A DNA stretch of 64,000 bases, taken from assembly GCA_963977015.1 (NCBI GenBank), contig CAXBMO010000022.1, positions 1 through 64,000 on the forward strand. Direction: 5' to 3'. How positions within the stretch are numbered: position 1 is the stretch's first letter; each line of letters begins with the position of its first letter. The notes under the pieces were generated by a model. The model did not search any database, was not told the DNA's origin, and worked only from the letters and a program-made list of their open reading frames with translations. The translations under genes and the position numbers were made by a program. Source of the DNA: an uncultured bacterium (GTDB lineage: Bacteria > Verrucomicrobiota > Verrucomicrobiia > Verrucomicrobiales > DEV007). Positions 58,896 to 64,000 of the stretch are shown one piece after another.

Positions 58896-59594
58896 TTAAT
58901 CCTCAACCAGCAATCCCAGAATCATTGCCGATTTTCGATTCTCGATGCCCAACCGCTTGTAAATCGACTCACAGTGCTTCTCAACGGTCCGCACACTCAC
59001 CCCTAGAATCATGCTAATTTCTTCGTTCGTTTTCCCCTGAACGAGCCATTCGAAAACTTCAACCTGGCGTTTGGTGAGTTTGCTGATCGCTTCCTCATTT
59101 CCGTTCTGTCGAAAATCCAACTGCTTTTCGACCTCCTCACTGGTCCAAACCTGCCACATTTCTGCAATCTTTTGATTTCTCATTTTGACCCTGCTGGTCC
59201 CACTCGCAAAGACGCGCTCCCCCACCGCAATGCTGCCCATGATCGGTTGTTTCAGGATTGCATCGGCCGTCCAATTCACGGCAACTGAGTCCTCACCCAC
59301 ATGGATGTTGGTAACCACGTGGCTCATGTCGTCATAAATCAGGGGAATCTGCGCCAGATGATCAATCATCGCCTCAATTCCGCGGACCGGTTCCGGAGAA
59401 GCTTGATCGTAGAACACCAAGTCATCACTCCAGTATTCCCTTGCCTTCTCCAAGCTAACCGGGCTGGCAGCCTTCACCGCATCGTTCAAAAAGATCTGCA
59501 TATAATCGAGAATAAAACTCAGATTGAACCGTTCGGACTCTGAAAGCGCATTCAGAGCATCCGGCGAGGGCTTTTTCTTGAACCAATAGAGCAT
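58896..59594 (-). CDS. SnoaL/NTF2-like sensor domain fused to a LuxR-type HTH
   Basis: WSDDLVFYD...VRGIEAM...NQKIAEMW NTF2-like region; LTKRQVEV...GKTNEEISMILGVSVRTVEKH HTH. Confidence 0.85.
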   Translation of the reverse strand: MLYWFKKKPSPDALNALSESERFNLSFILDYMQIFLNDAVKAASPVSLEKAREYWSDDLVFYDQASPEPVRGIEAMIDHLAQIPLIYDDMSHVVTNIHVGEDSVAVNWTADAILKQPIMGSIAVGERVFASGTSRVKMRNQKIAEMWQVWTSEEVEKQLDFRQNGNEEAISKLTKRQVEVFEWLVQGKTNEEISMILGVSVRTVEKHCESIYKRLGIENRKSAMILGLLVED

Positions 59595-59667: not shown

Positions 59668-60840
59668 TCAAGGTTCTGGAACGAGGATCTCTACAACGCC
59701 CCTGCCCCTGCCCATGGCAAAGATTCGACCAGAGATAGGCTCATTCGTCAAACAATGGAATGGGATGTCTCTAGTCAGTAGAAAATAGCCGGAGTCTTCC
59801 CGATCAATGAGGACCAACATACAATTATCAGGCCCTATACTTCCGTCTTCTCCCCGATAGTGAAATCCAACAATTACTTGGGATTCCGACAAAGCGACAC
59901 AATCAAATACGGAAATATCTTTAGACTTGCGAAAGCATTCGAAGTCGATCCACGGTTCGCTCAAAAGCTCATAGTCGTCTGGAGAAATACCGTTCAACAC
60001 TCTTACCTTTTGACCTTGGATATCCAGGCAATGAATGCGCTTCCGATCAAACGGGGGAATATGAAGTTTTCCACTCGGAATACGTTTGGCAATTCGCGAA
60101 ATAGAGATTGGATCGGTTTGGTCGATCCGATAAAGATCACCTGAACCCCTATCAGTGAAGGCAATTTTCAAGTCGAGAAGTGATACGAGATAGTGAGGAT
60201 ACCCCTTCAACTCCCCCCTAACATATCCGCTTCGCCCTTTGGTGGAGGAAAATTTGATGTATTCCTCGGGTTCGCCAAGAGGAAGACCAGACATGATACC
60301 AAGTCTCCAAAAATCAGCCCAAACAATGGAGCCATCGGTTCGCACGGCAAACGAGTAGTTGCTGGGTCCGTCATTGGCAATTTGCGCTACGAGAAGAGGC
60401 CGCGGCCCGATGTAAGCAAGATTGAGTTCTTTGCCATCCCAAGTGATCTGTTGAAGATCCCGAGCAACGGAGTCCGGCAGACTTTGAGCTCCCAAATCTC
60501 CTTTGGGTATGGATTCACCAGTCTGCCAGGGTTCGAAACGGGTAAGTGGCGGAAGAAAATTTAATGGTCGCTCTGGAGGCGTCAGCTGTTGCTCGACAAA
60601 CGCTTGGTCAGCCTGACTAAGGGTGGCTATCGGGATCGAAAACACTCGTCCGTCAGACTGGCGACGAATTCTGACGGTATCCGCCTCTACCGAGACCAAC
60701 TCGGCCGAAATGGATACGCCATTCTCATTCGTCCATTCGCGGACTTCAGCTTGAGCACAATGCCATCCAATAATCAGATGCACTGAGAGGATACAAAAGC
60801 TCAACTTACGCAACATCATTTTGGGTAGATTCATATCCAA
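59668..60840 (-). CDS. Secreted SHD1-domain protein with an unknown C-terminal region
   Basis: REWTNENGVSISAEL...VRIRR..DGRVFSIPIATLSQADQAFV is the SHD1 signature; signal peptide ending AQA. Confidence 0.78.
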   Translation of the reverse strand: MDMNLPKMMLRKLSFCILSVHLIIGWHCAQAEVREWTNENGVSISAELVSVEADTVRIRRQSDGRVFSIPIATLSQADQAFVEQQLTPPERPLNFLPPLTRFEPWQTGESIPKGDLGAQSLPDSVARDLQQITWDGKELNLAYIGPRPLLVAQIANDGPSNYSFAVRTDGSIVWADFWRLGIMSGLPLGEPEEYIKFSSTKGRSGYVRGELKGYPHYLVSLLDLKIAFTDRGSGDLYRIDQTDPISISRIAKRIPSGKLHIPPFDRKRIHCLDIQGQKVRVLNGISPDDYELLSEPWIDFECFRKSKDISVFDCVALSESQVIVGFHYRGEDGSIGPDNCMLVLIDREDSGYFLLTRDIPFHCLTNEPISGRIFAMGRGRGVVEILVPEP

Positions 60841-60842
60841 TC

Positions 60843-62516
60843 CTATCGCATCAACGCTTCACGTGCGTCTGGATCACTCATCAACTTTTGGTATTCCAAC
60901 TCCACCCGATTCAGCGCCTGGGCAATTTGCCCTCTCAGTTCACTTCTCTGGGCGGAGCTAAGATTGAGCGATTCACGGCGTTTGGTTGAGTTGTATTGGT
61001 TAATGGAATCCAACCATTCGAGGCTGCGCGGATCGAAAGCACTGCGGGCTTTTCCGAGTGTGGTGATGGCTTCCTGCAACGTTTCGTATTTGGGAGATCT
61101 CCCCCGATCAAGAAATACGTAGGCATGGAGCATCTGATCGAGTGACCCCGCGAGGGTGAGCTTTCTGGGATGCCGGTTGGATCCCCGCAAGAGCAGGAGT
61201 TTGGCCGAGACATGATTCGGTGCAAGTTCGAGGACTCTGGTCAATCGTTCCCGAACCTGCTGATTGCTGAGCAGGGCCTCCGGGTTTGAGCCGCGTAACA
61301 CGTCCTGAACCTCAGCGAACAGTTCGATACTCTCCTGAAGATCAGCGTCCCTACCATTCGGAGAAACGGCCAGGGCCTTTGCCTCTTCAAACGTCTTGAC
61401 GGTGAAAATCTGCGTCTGGAAAATTGGATCGACGCCCTCAGTTAGGAGAAGATCCCCCAATCGTGATGCGTTTTTTTCCGGTATTGCGACCAAGTTGATT
61501 CCGGAATCGCCCTCCGCTGGCTGCGTGGCAAGGATCCGGTCCCGAATAAAATAGATCGGCTGAATCGAGCCGTCTGCGTTGAGGTCCCCAAGCGGAGCAA
61601 ATTGGGGATCGAGAGCAACGTCATTGACCAAGGCATCTACGAGTAGCGCACACGCCAGGACACTGGATGGTCCATCAATCTGCGAATACCCTTCCCCGAA
61701 TGAGAGATCAATCCGATTTCCGCTGGGAATTGCCACGTTGCGCAGAGAAAACATCTTTACCATCTCATGCATGGCCGAGGCAAGTTCAGGCGGCTGCTGC
61801 CCCTTCACCACCGTAATCGACGAGCCAATACTCCCAAATTCACGGACACTGGCACTTACCTTCATTGGCTTCATCGATGAAGCGAGTACATCCCAACGCT
61901 TTTCGATTGCAGATAGTGATGCGTTCACTCGAGTTTCATCCAGAAAAACGCCTCCCACCGTCGCAAACTCACGTGGAAAATTCTCTGGGGCCATGGCCTC
62001 ACCAGGCTGCTCGCCATCCATCGCTGGATCTTGATCCGGAGCCACGCTGGGGAAGCCGGTAGAATCAACCAACTGCCTCATCAACACGGAGGCCTTCGTG
62101 CTCAGAGTTCCGTCAGCGGCCTCAATCTTGGGCATTAATCGGGTGAGTTCGCTCAAGACTTCATCCTTTGCTCGCGGCCGGGAAAAACCTGAGAACTTGA
62201 TACCATTGCGAAGGAAGAAATTCGCCTCTATCACGTCCCAATTCTCCGGGGCCAGAGTAAATGCAAAGGCGAGCGCGCCGGACTTGATCGCCGGGTCCAA
62301 TTCTTCCTGTTTGGCCAGTTCGACCAATGCAACGACCAAGGAAGAGTGTTCGGTTGGCGGCAACGCCAGGTCCATACGAGAAAACAGCGGATGGCTGAAA
62401 TCCGGCTCCAAATATTCTTGAGCATTAGCTGGAGATGCAAACATCACCACGCCTCCAAGACAGGCCACGAAGAAAAAAGGCAACGAGAAAAACAAACGAT
62501 CATTCATAAGGTTCAA
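60843..62516 (-). CDS. Secreted Lon-protease (S16) proteolytic-domain protein, probably inactive
   Basis: Signal peptide ending ANA; IDGPSS, GDLNADGSIQP, VAIPEKN; Arg at the catalytic Lys position; no Walker motifs. Confidence 0.78.
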   Translation of the reverse strand: MNLMNDRLFFSLPFFFVACLGGVVMFASPANAQEYLEPDFSHPLFSRMDLALPPTEHSSLVVALVELAKQEELDPAIKSGALAFAFTLAPENWDVIEANFFLRNGIKFSGFSRPRAKDEVLSELTRLMPKIEAADGTLSTKASVLMRQLVDSTGFPSVAPDQDPAMDGEQPGEAMAPENFPREFATVGGVFLDETRVNASLSAIEKRWDVLASSMKPMKVSASVREFGSIGSSITVVKGQQPPELASAMHEMVKMFSLRNVAIPSGNRIDLSFGEGYSQIDGPSSVLACALLVDALVNDVALDPQFAPLGDLNADGSIQPIYFIRDRILATQPAEGDSGINLVAIPEKNASRLGDLLLTEGVDPIFQTQIFTVKTFEEAKALAVSPNGRDADLQESIELFAEVQDVLRGSNPEALLSNQQVRERLTRVLELAPNHVSAKLLLLRGSNRHPRKLTLAGSLDQMLHAYVFLDRGRSPKYETLQEAITTLGKARSAFDPRSLEWLDSINQYNSTKRRESLNLSSAQRSELRGQIAQALNRVELEYQKLMSDPDAREALMR

Positions 62517-62531
62517 AGCAAAATGGTGTTC

Positions 62532-64000
62532 TTAGTCTTCCTCTTCCAATCCAGCTTCTCTCTGCACCTCCTTAACCAACATATTGTACCTGGACTGCAC
62601 CCGATCCCCCGCATTGCCGATTTTATTCGCCAGCTCGCGCCGACCGGTATCGCTCTTGGGGGGACTGTTTCTCACAATGCGAAACAAATCCGAAAATTCA
62701 GCAATGGCGTCGGCGGTCTCCCACGCTCGGGGATCCAGTTTCGGGCGCAAACGCTTCAACTGAGACGAAGCCGTGGCGAATTCATCCGTTTCAAGCGCAC
62801 TGCTCGCCCCGCGGAACCCGTCATTCTCCAACCCTTGAATGAGTGGTAGTGCCGCACGGTCAATGGCCGTGAGTGACCCACGAAGCGTGAGTTGGCGTGG
62901 GGTACGTCCCATGGCCGACAGCAACAGCATTTTGGCGGATGCGTGGTTTGGGGCCAGCTCAACGACCTGCCGCAAGCGCTGCTGGACCTGCCTGTTCTGG
63001 AGCATTCTTTCCCCGGCGCTTCCTCCGGAGAGCACCCGTTGGACGGTTGAAAACAACTCCATGGCTTGCTTGAGGTCGTCCGCTCGTTCTGCAGGAGGGG
63101 CGGCGAGCGCATGCGCCGACTCAAACGAATCAATCGTGAATACCTGGATCGCCGTCATCGGCTCGATCCCATCGGTCAACAACAGATCCAGCAAGACCTC
63201 TTCATTGACGGACGGAATCGCCACATGAGTACATTTGCGGCTCGTGGCCCCGCGAATCTTGCCATCGATTCCTCCCACCGCCTTGACGGCACCATCGGTC
63301 TCAAGCGCCCCCGTGACCGCAAATCCGGGATCAATCTCCTCCCCCTTGAGCAACGAATTTAGAAGCAGCGCACAGGCAACCGAAGCCGAGTCCCCATCTT
63401 TCGGAGAATATTGGCTCTCAAAACTAATCTCCACGCGATGCCCTCTGGGAATTTCGCCTTGATGGTTATCAATGTAGGTCACCACTTTGTTCAATCCCGA
63501 CTCCATCATCTCCCCCACCTCTTGGTTAAACATCACCCGGGTTGACTGCCCCCTAACTCCTTGAACGACGGTCGCGTTCATTTGAGAAGCGCCGCCTGCG
63601 TAGTTGGAACCGTCCAACACCAATACCAGCAAGCCTGTGATCAAACTCTGCCGCTTCTGAAATCCATCTCCCCCCATTTCTGTGGAAACACCCCCGGGCC
63701 TTTCAAAATAAATCACTTCTGAAGCCGCTGTTCTGGTGACCAAAACGTCTCCAGCATCCCCCTCAGGAAAGGCCGGTTCCCAATTCGCAGTCGGAGGTTG
63801 ACGACGCCCAAAAAGAGCGGCTCGAATATCCTCAAGACAGGGAAGCACATCGGAAGCTGGAAGCCGATCAAGAAATGGCCCAATCCGGGCGGCCAGTTTT
63901 GGGATAGTTTCTTGAGATGCCCCTGCGAAGAAGGAATCCACATCGGCGCTTCCCGCCCCGGCATAACGAAAATAAAAATCAGCCTCGATTACGTCCCTTC
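62532..64000 (-). CDS. Lon-protease (S16) proteolytic-domain protein with intact dyad (5' partial)
   Basis: PKDGDSAS, AVTGAL, VGGIDGKIRGA, IPSVN; frame stays open from 63941 to the window end (RDVIEADFYFRYAGAGSAD). Confidence 0.85.
   Translation of the reverse strand, partial: RDVIEADFYFRYAGAGSADVDSFFAGASQETIPKLAARIGPFLDRLPASDVLPCLEDIRAALFGRRQPPTANWEPAFPEGDAGDVLVTRTAASEVIYFERPGGVSTEMGGDGFQKRQSLITGLLVLVLDGSNYAGGASQMNATVVQGVRGQSTRVMFNQEVGEMMESGLNKVVTYIDNHQGEIPRGHRVEISFESQYSPKDGDSASVACALLLNSLLKGEEIDPGFAVTGALETDGAVKAVGGIDGKIRGATSRKCTHVAIPSVNEEVLLDLLLTDGIEPMTAIQVFTIDSFESAHALAAPPAERADDLKQAMELFSTVQRVLSGGSAGERMLQNRQVQQRLRQVVELAPNHASAKMLLLSAMGRTPRQLTLRGSLTAIDRAALPLIQGLENDGFRGASSALETDEFATASSQLKRLRPKLDPRAWETADAIAEFSDLFRIVRNSPPKSDTGRRELANKIGNAGDRVQSRYNMLVKEVQREAGLEEED

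What the first reader, a model, noticed from the sequence alone, without database searches (positions are those of the whole stretch)
60843..64000. Tandem ATPase-less Lon-domain paralogs: an active protease next to a pseudo-protease
Seen: two adjacent paralogs 15 bp apart that share an N-terminal motif (WDVIEANFFLR / RDVIEADFYFR), a Lon proteolytic domain and a helical C-terminal block (ELAPNHxSAKxLLL...PRxLTLxGSL). The upstream gene has Ser (63387-63389) and Lys exactly 43 residues later (63258-63260), the same spacing as E. coli Lon S679-K722. The downstream gene keeps Ser (61665-61667) but has Arg at +43 (61536-61538), and VGG has become IYF. It has a signal peptide, and no AAA+ Walker motif is visible in either gene. 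Inference: an exported ATP-independent S16 protease working with an inactive partner as scaffold, adaptor or inhibitor, analogous to ClpP/ClpR.
Basis: partly seen in the sequence, partly recalled or inferred. Interest (0 to 1): 0.72.

Follow-up and report, generated by a model that had tools for sequence, protein, structure and literature searches.

The report
Exported Lon protease with dead partner
Two neighbouring genes encode exported, ATPase-less Lon-type proteases, one with an intact active site and one conserved but apparently inactive copy, and this pair has been inherited together across a group of Verrucomicrobiales bacteria.

Summary
On the minus strand lie UP (62532..64286, 584 aa, running 286 bp past the window) and DN (60843..62516, 557 aa), 15 nt apart. 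UP has Ser300/Lys343. DN has Ser284/Arg327 and IYF in place of VGG. Neither gene has an AAA+ module, and both start with a signal-peptide-like segment.

New here:
- The Arg paralog is an old, conserved lineage, not a decaying copy. In the quick tree, 27 of 29 Arg-bearing sequences form one clade (SH-aLRT 96).
- Arg is invariant, while five to seven active-site positions invariant in 57 Lys-type relatives are changed.
- In the sister subclade the Ser nucleophile is Ala or Gly in 14 of 15 sequences.
- The K/R pair sits on 11 other species-level genome contigs, in order K→R (4) or R→K (7), often with 4-bp overlaps, and nothing else around it is conserved.
- dN in R is only 1.08–1.39 times that in K, and ω is about 0.17 against 0.12 for the closest genome pair.
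- Both models keep the Lon fold.

Physical association has only weak predicted support. Substrate and role are unknown. I rate this a new variant of known kinds: ATP-independent Lon proteases, and protease/pseudo-protease pairs.

The parts
62532..64000 (-). UP: the K-type exported ATPase-less Lon (S16) protease gene. The gene continues to 64286 in the contig (584 aa; likely ATG start at residue 8 gives 577 aa).
   Evidence: Pfam Lon_C 44.1 bits, 43.6 bits on the full-length protein
63102..63650 (-). UP Lon proteolytic domain (about residues 213-395 in 584-aa numbering)
   Evidence: AF2 model; Foldseek 1rr9_F TMt 0.85, rmsd 2.4
63387..63389 (-). UP catalytic Ser300 (motif KDGDSAS)
   Evidence: aligned to the Ser of archaeal LonB domains
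63258..63260 (-). UP catalytic Lys343 (motif VGGIDGK), 43 residues after the Ser
62535..63101 (-). UP C-terminal helical bundle, with the ELAPNHASAK motif
   Evidence: structural matches only to other Verrucomicrobiota clusters
62517..62531 (-). 15-nt gap between the UP stop (TAA) and the DN TTG start. An in-frame ATG lies 9 nt further on. No terminator-like site lies in the gap.
60843..62516 (-). DN: the R-type paralog (557 aa), read as a pseudo-protease
62421..62516 (-). DN signal-peptide-like N-terminus (residues 1-32, ending ...PANAQ)
   Evidence: hydrophobicity scan; pLDDT below 50 for residues 1-32
62052..62381 (-). DN N-terminal helical domain (residues 46-155), with the WDVIEANFFLR motif
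   Evidence: only generic helical matches
61347..61976 (-). DN Lon-fold domain (residues 181-390)
   Evidence: VIA-align Z 18.5, rmsd 2.4, 175 aligned to 1rr9_A; Foldseek 3wu3_A TMt 0.79
61665..61667 (-). DN Ser284 at the nucleophile position. In its subclade this position is Ser in 7 and Thr in 5 of 12.
61536..61538 (-). DN Arg327 in place of the catalytic Lys. It is invariant in the R clade.
60846..61346 (-). DN C-terminal helical bundle (residues 391-557)
59668..60840 (-). Third co-oriented gene (390 aa, signal-like N-terminus, weak SHD1 match), starting 2 nt after the DN stop. Probably co-transcribed here, but not part of the conserved module.
   Evidence: no homologue in the 12 other pair loci

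Best explanation
UP and DN form a self-contained two-gene module of exported (periplasmic or extracellular), ATP-independent Lon-fold proteins. UP is a working Ser-Lys (S16) peptidase. DN is a non-catalytic paralog, a pseudo-protease, that arose from one old duplication and has been kept beside an active partner ever since. The most likely mechanism is that the two are co-translated and assemble through their Lon domains and C-terminal helical bundles into a mixed oligomer, probably a Lon-type ring. In that assembly only the K subunits cut. The R subunits supply a non-catalytic function such as spacing of active sites, substrate binding or gating, and the invariant Arg and surrounding groove are retained for binding, not chemistry. 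Shown: the anatomy, loss of the active-site motifs, conserved fold, single origin, co-inheritance, tight gene coupling and purifying selection. Inferred: export, physical association, lack of activity in DN, and the substrate.
For: 1. Architecture. No AAA+ module in either gene. Both models have an N-terminal helical domain, a linker, a Lon domain and a C-terminal bundle. Lon fold: Z 18.5 for DN and TMt 0.85 for UP.
2. Active site. Across 57 K-type relatives the positions K296, T325, G338, G339 and K343 are 100% conserved or nearly so. In the 10 R-type sequences they are changed, and Arg is present in 10 of 10.
3. Extended set. 12 more Arg-type clusters were found among the 139 newly listed proteins of the 150 best profile hits. 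Six have Ala and one has Gly at the Ser column. By subclade: A has Ser 7 / Thr 5 of 12; B has Ala 12 / Gly 2 / Ser 1 of 15.
4. One origin. 27 of 29 Arg rows form one clade, SH-aLRT 96.
5. Pairing. K->R on L020-L023. R->K on L059, L066, L069, L071, L072, L075 and L076. The junction is a 4-bp overlap in 6 of the 13 listed. No other gene is shared across the 13 loci.
6. Selection. dN R/K is 1.08-1.39 in 10 of 10 genome pairs. For WIN-L020, omega is 0.12 (K) and 0.17 (R). K-K and R-R identities correlate at r 0.92, with 0 of 2000 permutations as high.
7. Export. Signal-like N-termini in both clades. Relatives carry C-type lectin and EF-hand modules.
8. Complex prediction: weak support. Score 0.57 with best of 3 controls 0.00. 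The mark was reached by 116 of 157 solved complexes and 2 of 215 mismatched pairs, but at 0.60 or under by only 18 of those 157 and by both mismatches that passed. Runs agree in at least 76% of contacts, and partner pLDDT is at least 86.
Against: There is no direct evidence of binding. The complex score is a weak pass and may be memory of solved Lon rings, and it does not separate hetero- from homo-oligomers. In the window's own subclade the hydroxyl nucleophile is kept (Ser or Thr in 12 of 12), so residual or unusual activity is not excluded. dS is saturated (above 1.5, or undefined in 2 of 10 K and 4 of 10 R comparisons), so omega is rough. The distance correlation is expected from co-inheritance alone. 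The trees are quick searches, because the careful one did not finish, and 2 Arg rows on long branches fall outside the clade. The signal peptide was judged from hydrophobicity only. No RNA data were available. Many K-type relatives live without an R partner, so the protease does not need one in general.
Confidence: 0.6

Rival explanations
1. DN is an active peptidase in its own right, using a Ser/Thr nucleophile with Arg or another residue as the base, and the pair is two enzymes with different specificities.
For: Ser or Thr is kept in 12 of 12 subclade-A sequences. The fold is intact. Purifying selection is nearly as strong as on UP.
Against: Five to seven active-site positions conserved across the family are changed together: the PKDG Lys, the TG Thr, both Gly of VGG, the Lys, and the RG after it. 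The sister subclade has Ala or Gly at the nucleophile in 14 of 15 yet keeps Arg and the pairing, so what is conserved is not catalysis. From recall, not tested here: Lys-to-Arg changes in Ser-Lys dyad enzymes leave little activity at neutral pH.
Confidence: 0.12
2. DN is a dedicated inhibitor or latency factor. It caps or occupies UP and keeps it silent until a signal releases it (a trans-acting prodomain-like role), and is not a permanent ring subunit.
For: The co-inheritance and coupling are the same as for the main reading. The invariant Arg in a retained groove could mimic a bound substrate.
Against: Nothing separates it from the scaffold reading. The complex prediction gave no interface. 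A full-length paralog of about 550 aa with all three domains conserved is a large investment for an inhibitor.
Confidence: 0.18
3. The two genes are adjacent only by descent (tandem duplicates) and work independently. DN has a new non-protease function unrelated to UP.
For: No binding data exist. Many K-type relatives are singletons, and K-K tandem duplicates also occur (L031, L035, L043, L079).
Against: Adjacency survives in 12 species-level genomes while every flanking gene differs. Both gene orders occur with 4-bp overlaps, so the pair was kept together through at least one rearrangement. In the loci that reach both neighbours, no R-type was seen without a K-type beside it. L086 holds an R-type alone on a 2.9-kb contig that ends.
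Confidence: 0.1

Closest known systems
Archaeal LonB / bacterial LonA proteolytic domain (MEROPS S16; PDB 1xhk, 1z0e, 1rr9)
   Same: UP shares the Lon fold and the Ser-Lys dyad with the same 43-residue spacing. Best sequence matches are 1xhk (E 1.3e-10) and 1z0e. Fold matches are TMt 0.85 and Z 18.5 for DN.
   Different: No AAA+ module and no LON N-domain. Signal-like N-terminus. Family-specific N- and C-terminal helical domains. NCBIfam Lon equivalog scores are far below cut-off (53 bits against 516).
MtaLonC, ATP-independent Lon-like protease (PMC3391209, abstract read; PDB 4fw9)
   Same: A Lon protease domain that degrades unfolded substrates without ATP and forms a hexameric chamber (per the abstract). 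It shows that such a domain can work without an ATPase.
   Different: LonC has a large N-terminal AAA-like domain and is not described as exported. Here the N-terminus is a helical domain of about 110 aa, and only the P domain aligns (4fw9_A Z 15.0, model range 184-393). No paired dead paralog is described there.
SepM / YlbL: PDZ plus Lon_C envelope proteases (search listing and abstracts only: PMC11197336, PMC6051672)
   Same: ATPase-less S16 proteases that act outside the cytoplasm.
   Different: Those carry a PDZ domain (role recalled). No PDZ was found here. The NCBIfam SepM_fam_S16 model scores 11.4 bits against a cut-off of 200. They have no pseudo-protease partner.
ClpP/ClpR mixed rings, and the CspB / CspC-CspA protease/pseudo-protease sets of Clostridioides (Csp papers seen only in a search listing; ClpR recalled)
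   Same: Works like them: an active protease kept together with a conserved catalytically dead paralog.
   Different: Different folds and clans (S14, S8). The Clp rings are cytoplasmic or plastid and ATPase-coupled. Not members of the same family.
Dead Lon-fold domains of RadA/Sms, ComM and BrxL (PDB 5lkq, 8rxd, 8emc; papers seen in a search listing)
   Same: A Lon fold without catalytic residues, used as a ring-forming module. DN aligns at Z 14.4-16.9.
   Different: Those are domains fused to ATPases acting on DNA in the cytoplasm. DN is a separate, exported protein paired with an active protease.

Membership tests
Pfam PF05362 Lon_C / MEROPS S16 peptidase | Sequence match above the curated cut-off (21.1 bits) | tested here: met
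   UP scores 44.1 bits and 43.6 bits on the full-length protein. This row is for UP only.
Pfam PF05362 Lon_C / MEROPS S16 peptidase | Ser-Lys catalytic dyad | tested here: met
   UP has Ser300 and Lys343, aligned to the dyad columns of 57 K-type relatives and of LonB domains.
MEROPS S16 peptidase (applied to DN) | Sequence match above cut-off, and a Ser-Lys dyad | tested here: not met
   DN scores 18.9 bits, below 21.1. Lys is replaced by Arg327, and VGG, the TG Thr and the PKDG Lys are lost. DN has the fold (Z 18.5) but is a non-peptidase homologue by these criteria.
ATP-dependent Lon (LonA/LonB) | AAA+ module in the same polypeptide | tested here: not met
   No AAA family in Pfam for either full-length protein. 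NCBIfam lon/LonB equivalogs score 18-53 bits against cut-offs of 516-891. The upstream neighbour is unrelated.
LonC (MtaLonC type) | Large N-terminal AAA-like domain before the protease domain | tested here: not met
   The N-terminus is a helical domain of about 110 aa plus a linker. 4fw9 aligns only over model residues 184-393.
SepM/YlbL family | PDZ domain plus Lon_C; NCBIfam NF041438 above 200 bits | tested here: not met
   NF041438 scores 11.4 bits. No PDZ was found in the Pfam scans.
BrxL (BREX) | PADLOC BrxL model match and an AAA+ domain | tested here: not met
   UP gives E 0.025 and 10.8 bits; DN gives no hit.
Protease/pseudo-protease hetero-oligomer (ClpP/ClpR-like way of working) | Physical association of the active and dead paralogs | tested here: inconclusive
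   Complex prediction gave weak support: 0.57 against a best control of 0.00, with the caveats printed. No experiment.
Sec-exported protein | N-terminal signal peptide | tested here: inconclusive
   A hydrophobic stretch in the first 30-60 residues (KD12 2.0-2.8 in the clearest cases), ending AQ/GQ, in 10 of 10 R-type and in 8-9 of 11 K-type N-termini; the other K-type entries look 5'-truncated. No dedicated predictor was available.

The most novel reading that the evidence does not exclude
This would be the first protease/pseudo-protease mixed ring in the Lon (S16) family, and one that works outside the cytoplasm without any ATPase. The K and R subunits would alternate in a periplasmic chamber. 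The dead sites, with their invariant Arg and (in this subclade) retained Ser/Thr, would act as substrate-holding or gating sites that set what the live sites cut. The two subclades would then record a stepwise path from active enzyme to full pseudo-enzyme: first Lys to Arg, later loss of the nucleophile.
Probability: 0.3. Interest if true: 0.72.

Novelty: new variant of a known kind. Interest (0 to 1): 0.55.

Why it matters
ATP-independent Lon-fold proteases and protease/pseudo-protease pairs are both known. My searches found no description of a conserved dead paralog partnered with a Lon-type protease, nor of this exported Verrucomicrobiales family (searches returned nothing on it).

The R-type scores below Pfam's Lon_C cut-off, and where the sources give it any name they call it hypothetical. 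Genome annotation therefore does not see it.

The system offers a natural series for studying how an enzyme becomes a pseudo-enzyme while staying tied to its active partner. It could also reveal how envelope proteolysis is controlled in a phylum whose periplasmic proteases are little studied. The practical stakes are modest until a substrate is known.

Tried and rejected
- **Decaying duplicate:** rejected.
- **AAA+ module beyond the window:** rejected.
- **Defence-system link:** PADLOC gave only BrxL at E 0.025 for UP and nothing for DN or the third gene.
- **Third gene as part of the module:** rejected. It has no homologue in the 12 other loci.
- **GDLNADG loop as an R-type gain (possible Ca-binding loop):** rejected. 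Most K-type relatives also have it.
- **Helical domains:** no convincing known fold. The Atlas feature search gave no usable hit for residues 392-577 or 30-160. Structural rows were other Verrucomicrobiota clusters (C-terminal domain) or generic bundles with TM 0.55 or less (N-terminal domain). VIA-align rows for these parts had Z 6.8 or less, within the noise for helical bundles.
- **Expression:** no RNA holder was listed, and read laying was not used.
- **Earlier notes of this scan:** nothing by place, sequence or words.
- **Promoter/terminator scan:** counts were at shuffle level (3 against 2.1; 5 against 5.8), so it was used only to note that no terminator-like site lies in the gene gaps.
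- **Careful ML tree:** it did not finish in the time limit, so quick trees were used.
- **Divergent R-types in species-representative genomes:** one search returned the four K->R loci already known (as L046-L049) and K-type singles, but its loci L059, L066, L069, L071, L072, L075 and L076 turned out to hold the R->K pairs. The metagenome scan added only duplicates (L084, L085), the near-identical L078, and singles.
Full report
**What is there**

The window is G000:C22:1-64000 of a 100,062-bp contig. On the minus strand lie three closely spaced genes.

- UP runs 62532..64286 (584 aa from a TTG). An ATG at residue 8 gives the 577-aa form held in the public protein collection as P0001.
- DN runs 60843..62516 (557 aa).
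- A third ORF runs 59668..60840 (390 aa).

The UP stop is followed 15 nt later by the DN TTG start, with an in-frame ATG 9 nt further on. The DN stop is followed 2 nt later by the third ORF. No terminator-like site lies in either gap, although that scan was at background level overall. The next gene upstream (64742..65458) is unrelated and is separated by about 455 bp.

**Checking the observation**

UP and DN are paralogs: 38% identity over 335 aa, E 4e-58. The similarity extends to the N-terminal region, where both share a 'Y-x-E-P-x-F-x-x-P-L-F' stretch right after a hydrophobic N-terminus, plus the VIEA-F motif.

Pfam Lon_C scores 44.1 bits for UP and 18.9 bits for DN, against a cut-off of 21.1. 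UP has Ser300 and Lys343, 43 residues apart, in the motifs KDGDSAS and VGGIDGK. DN has Ser284 and Arg327, with IYF where VGG should be.

Full-length UP hits only Lon_C, plus a weak sub-threshold ChlI match on the same stretch. The genome holds no further copy. The only other hit is a weak match to an 841-aa ORF on C29, which I take to be the canonical Lon from its length; I did not examine it further.

**Structure**

AlphaFold2 models were built with family alignments: DN has mean pLDDT 83.3 and UP 77.7. Both show a disordered signal region, an N-terminal helical domain of about 110 aa, a low-confidence linker, an α/β domain and a C-terminal helical bundle.

- The α/β domain is a Lon proteolytic domain. 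UP against 1rr9_F gives TMt 0.85, rmsd 2.4.
- DN against 3wu3_A gives TMt 0.79, rmsd 2.4. Without Foldseek, DN against 1rr9_A gives Z 18.5, rmsd 2.4, 175 aligned.
- By sequence, the closest solved relatives of UP are archaeal LonB domains (1xhk E 1.3e-10; 1z0e E 8.1e-10).
- The helical domains gave no convincing known fold.
- The C-terminal bundle matches, by predicted structure, other clusters found only in Verrucomicrobiota (TM 0.82, 0.74, 0.69).

**The family**

A word-based search found 23 relatives of UP and 10 of DN, all labelled Verrucomicrobiota or Verrucomicrobiales where a name exists. An exhaustive profile search with the R-type alignment against 1.84 billion representatives found 1102 proteins at E ≤ 0.001, 744 at ≤ 1e-10 and 315 at ≤ 1e-30. 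The weakest of these may include ordinary Lon proteases.

In a sample of 401 genomes of the phylum, 10 had a match at E ≤ 1e-10. Four of those matches lie in ORFs of about 800-830 aa, which look like ordinary Lon. Family members range from 388 to 955 aa and differ in their N-terminal parts. One carries a C-type lectin domain and several carry EF-hand motifs. That fits a location outside the cytoplasm.

**The Arg paralog is a conserved lineage**

- In the first set, all 8 DN orthologs (P0024-P0031) have Arg at the Lys column, and all 25 other relatives have Ser and Lys.
- Over 74 aligned sequences, 10 are R-type, 58 have both Ser and Lys, 4 lack both, and 2 are halves of a split gene.
- A column-by-column comparison used 13 partner K-types, 44 other K-types and 10 R-types. 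Positions conserved across the family and changed in R are: the Lys of PKDG, the Thr of TG, both Gly of VGG, the catalytic Lys (Arg in 10 of 10), and the Arg-Gly after it. Ser is kept in only 6 of 10, with Thr in the rest.
- Arg327 is among 65 invariant columns of the 9-sequence R alignment.
- Of the 139 newly listed proteins among the 150 best profile hits, 110 have the full K-S-T-G-G-K signature. Twelve have Arg at the Lys column; at the Ser column these carry Ala (6), Gly (1), Ser (2), Thr (1) or an alignment gap (2). Two others have Met or Leu at the Lys column.

**One origin**

A first quick tree used 68 rows. I dropped six rows beforehand (two split-gene halves and four sequences lacking both residues) and any row under 250 aa. 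It put the 10 R-types in one clade (SH-aLRT 99) and the 12 partner K-types in another (99). The careful search did not finish.

A second quick tree used 99 rows. From 221 distinct sequences I kept all rows without Lys, all locus rows and P0001-P0033. I left out the other K-type profile hits and 16 duplicates or fragments. It places 27 of 29 Arg rows in one clade (SH-aLRT 96) with two subclades:

- Subclade A: 12 rows (98), includes DN, with Ser in 7 and Thr in 5.
- Subclade B: 15 rows (100), with Ala in 12, Gly in 2 and Ser in 1 (counts).

The two Arg rows outside (P0132, P0168) sit on long branches with the L024/L026 partners. Their placement is unreliable.

**The pair is the conserved unit**

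Gene order K→R occurs on four other genome contigs (L020-L023). Gene order R→K occurs on seven (L059, L066, L069, L071, L072, L075, L076). L084 and L085 are duplicates of L066. L078, a marine metagenome scaffold, is 99.8% identical to the window's pair.

The junction is a 4-bp overlap in 6 of the 13 junctions listed. Others are -1, +1, +3, +8 and +61. Two junctions have an uncertain start codon.

Across the window and 12 loci, nothing else is shared by more than two closely related loci. The module has therefore been kept together while everything around it changed, including one inversion of gene order.

On L024 and L026 a much more degenerate paralog, with neither Ser nor Lys, sits upstream of a K-type gene. 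That K-type gene is sister to the subclade-B partners. I infer this is a further-diverged form of the same arrangement.

**Selection**

Nei-Gojobori estimates over the five K→R genomes give dN in R of 1.08-1.39 times dN in K, in 10 of 10 genome pairs. dS is saturated (1.5-3.6) or undefined (2 of 10 for K, 4 of 10 for R). Where defined, ω is 0.12-0.35 for K and 0.15-0.33 for R. For the closest pair it is 0.12 and 0.17.

K-K and R-R identities across 10 putative genome pairs correlate at r 0.92, with 0 of 2000 label permutations as high. Five of those pairs were matched only by shared contig length. This is what co-inheritance predicts and is not by itself evidence of contact.

**How it most likely works**

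UP has everything a Ser-Lys Lon peptidase needs except an unfoldase. By analogy with MtaLonC (abstract of PMC3391209), it should cut unfolded proteins or peptides without ATP.

DN has lost the chemistry but kept the fold, the flanking domains, an invariant Arg and its place next to an active partner. Dead Lon-fold domains are already known as ring-forming modules in RadA/Sms, ComM and BrxL (structures listed; papers seen only in the listing). I therefore favour a mixed oligomer in which DN is a non-catalytic subunit.

It gave weak support: 0.57, 0.58 and 0.56 in three runs, with the best of 3 controls at 0.00. The mark was reached by 116 of 157 solved complexes and 2 of 215 mismatches, but at 0.60 or under by only 18 of the 157 and by both mismatches that passed. 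Runs agree in at least 76% of contacts, and partner pLDDT is at least 86. Because Lon rings are solved, this may be memory, and it cannot separate hetero- from homo-oligomers.

The rivals remain open: independent activity, an inhibitor role, or mere adjacency. They are scored in their own section.

**Comparison and novelty**

UP is a member of S16/Lon_C by score, dyad and fold. It is not LonA/B (no AAA+), not LonC (no AAA-like N-domain), not SepM/YlbL (no PDZ; 11.4 bits against 200) and not BrxL. DN is a non-peptidase homologue of S16.

The way of working resembles ClpP/ClpR (recalled) and the Csp protease/pseudo-protease sets (seen in a search listing), which belong to other folds.

Five literature searches found no description of an exported Lon pair or a Lon pseudo-protease. 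A 2008 survey mentions 42 putative inactive serine-protease homologues across five families, without this case in the passages I read (PMC2605481). Its Additional file 1 was not opened and may list S16 examples.

I rate this a new variant of known kinds, of moderate interest. It is a clean natural example of stepwise pseudo-enzyme evolution tied to an active partner, in an unstudied exported protease family, with no substrate or phenotype yet.

Noticed in passing
window 59668-60840 (-): A 390-aa ORF with a signal-like N-terminus and a sub-threshold SHD1 match (20.3 bits against a cut-off of 23.7). It starts 2 nt after the DN stop, so it is probably co-transcribed here, but it is absent from the 12 other pair loci.
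   Followed up: partly
window 58896-59594 (-): A regulator with a SnoaL-like domain fused to a LuxR/GerE helix-turn-helix, just downstream of the three-gene row.
   Followed up: no
L024:4094-6154 and L026:4126-6009: A much more degenerate paralog (no Ser, no Lys, no Pfam hit) lies directly upstream of a K-type gene. It may be a further-diverged form of the R->K arrangement.
   Followed up: partly
L008:748-2478 (G081) and L009:403-2493 (G348): Single family members in same-order genomes that lack both Ser and Lys and have no Pfam hit. No partner gene was examined.
   Followed up: no
L031, L035, L043, L079: Tandem or nearby K-K duplicates, both copies with an intact Ser-Lys dyad, in Verrucomicrobium-labelled and other contigs. 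Duplication is frequent in this family.
   Followed up: no
L045:5946-7822 (= L073:3946-5822): A K-type gene split into two overlapping ORFs (361 and 293 aa). It is probably a frameshift or a broken copy.
   Followed up: no
P0001 residues 392-577 (window 62535-63101): By predicted structure, the C-terminal helical bundle recurs in other Verrucomicrobiota-only clusters that are not Lon_C families. One of them is auto-named 'Peptidase M48-like'. It may be a phylum-specific module shared by several exported proteases.
   Followed up: partly
UP residues 305 and 352; DN residues 289 and 340: Two Cys are conserved in K-types (C305 in 100% and 93%; C352 in 100% and 82% of the two K groups). The second is Val or Ile in most R-types. 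This could be a disulfide in the exported active enzyme. Distances in the model were not checked.
   Followed up: no
L028:5654-7996; P0007-P0009: Family members with an added C-type lectin domain or EF-hand motifs in the N-terminal part.
   Followed up: partly
G000:C22:68857-71028 (-), outside the window: A 723-aa proline-rich protein with many repeats of a '...QFEPTGPPP...' unit and a signal-like N-terminus.
   Followed up: no
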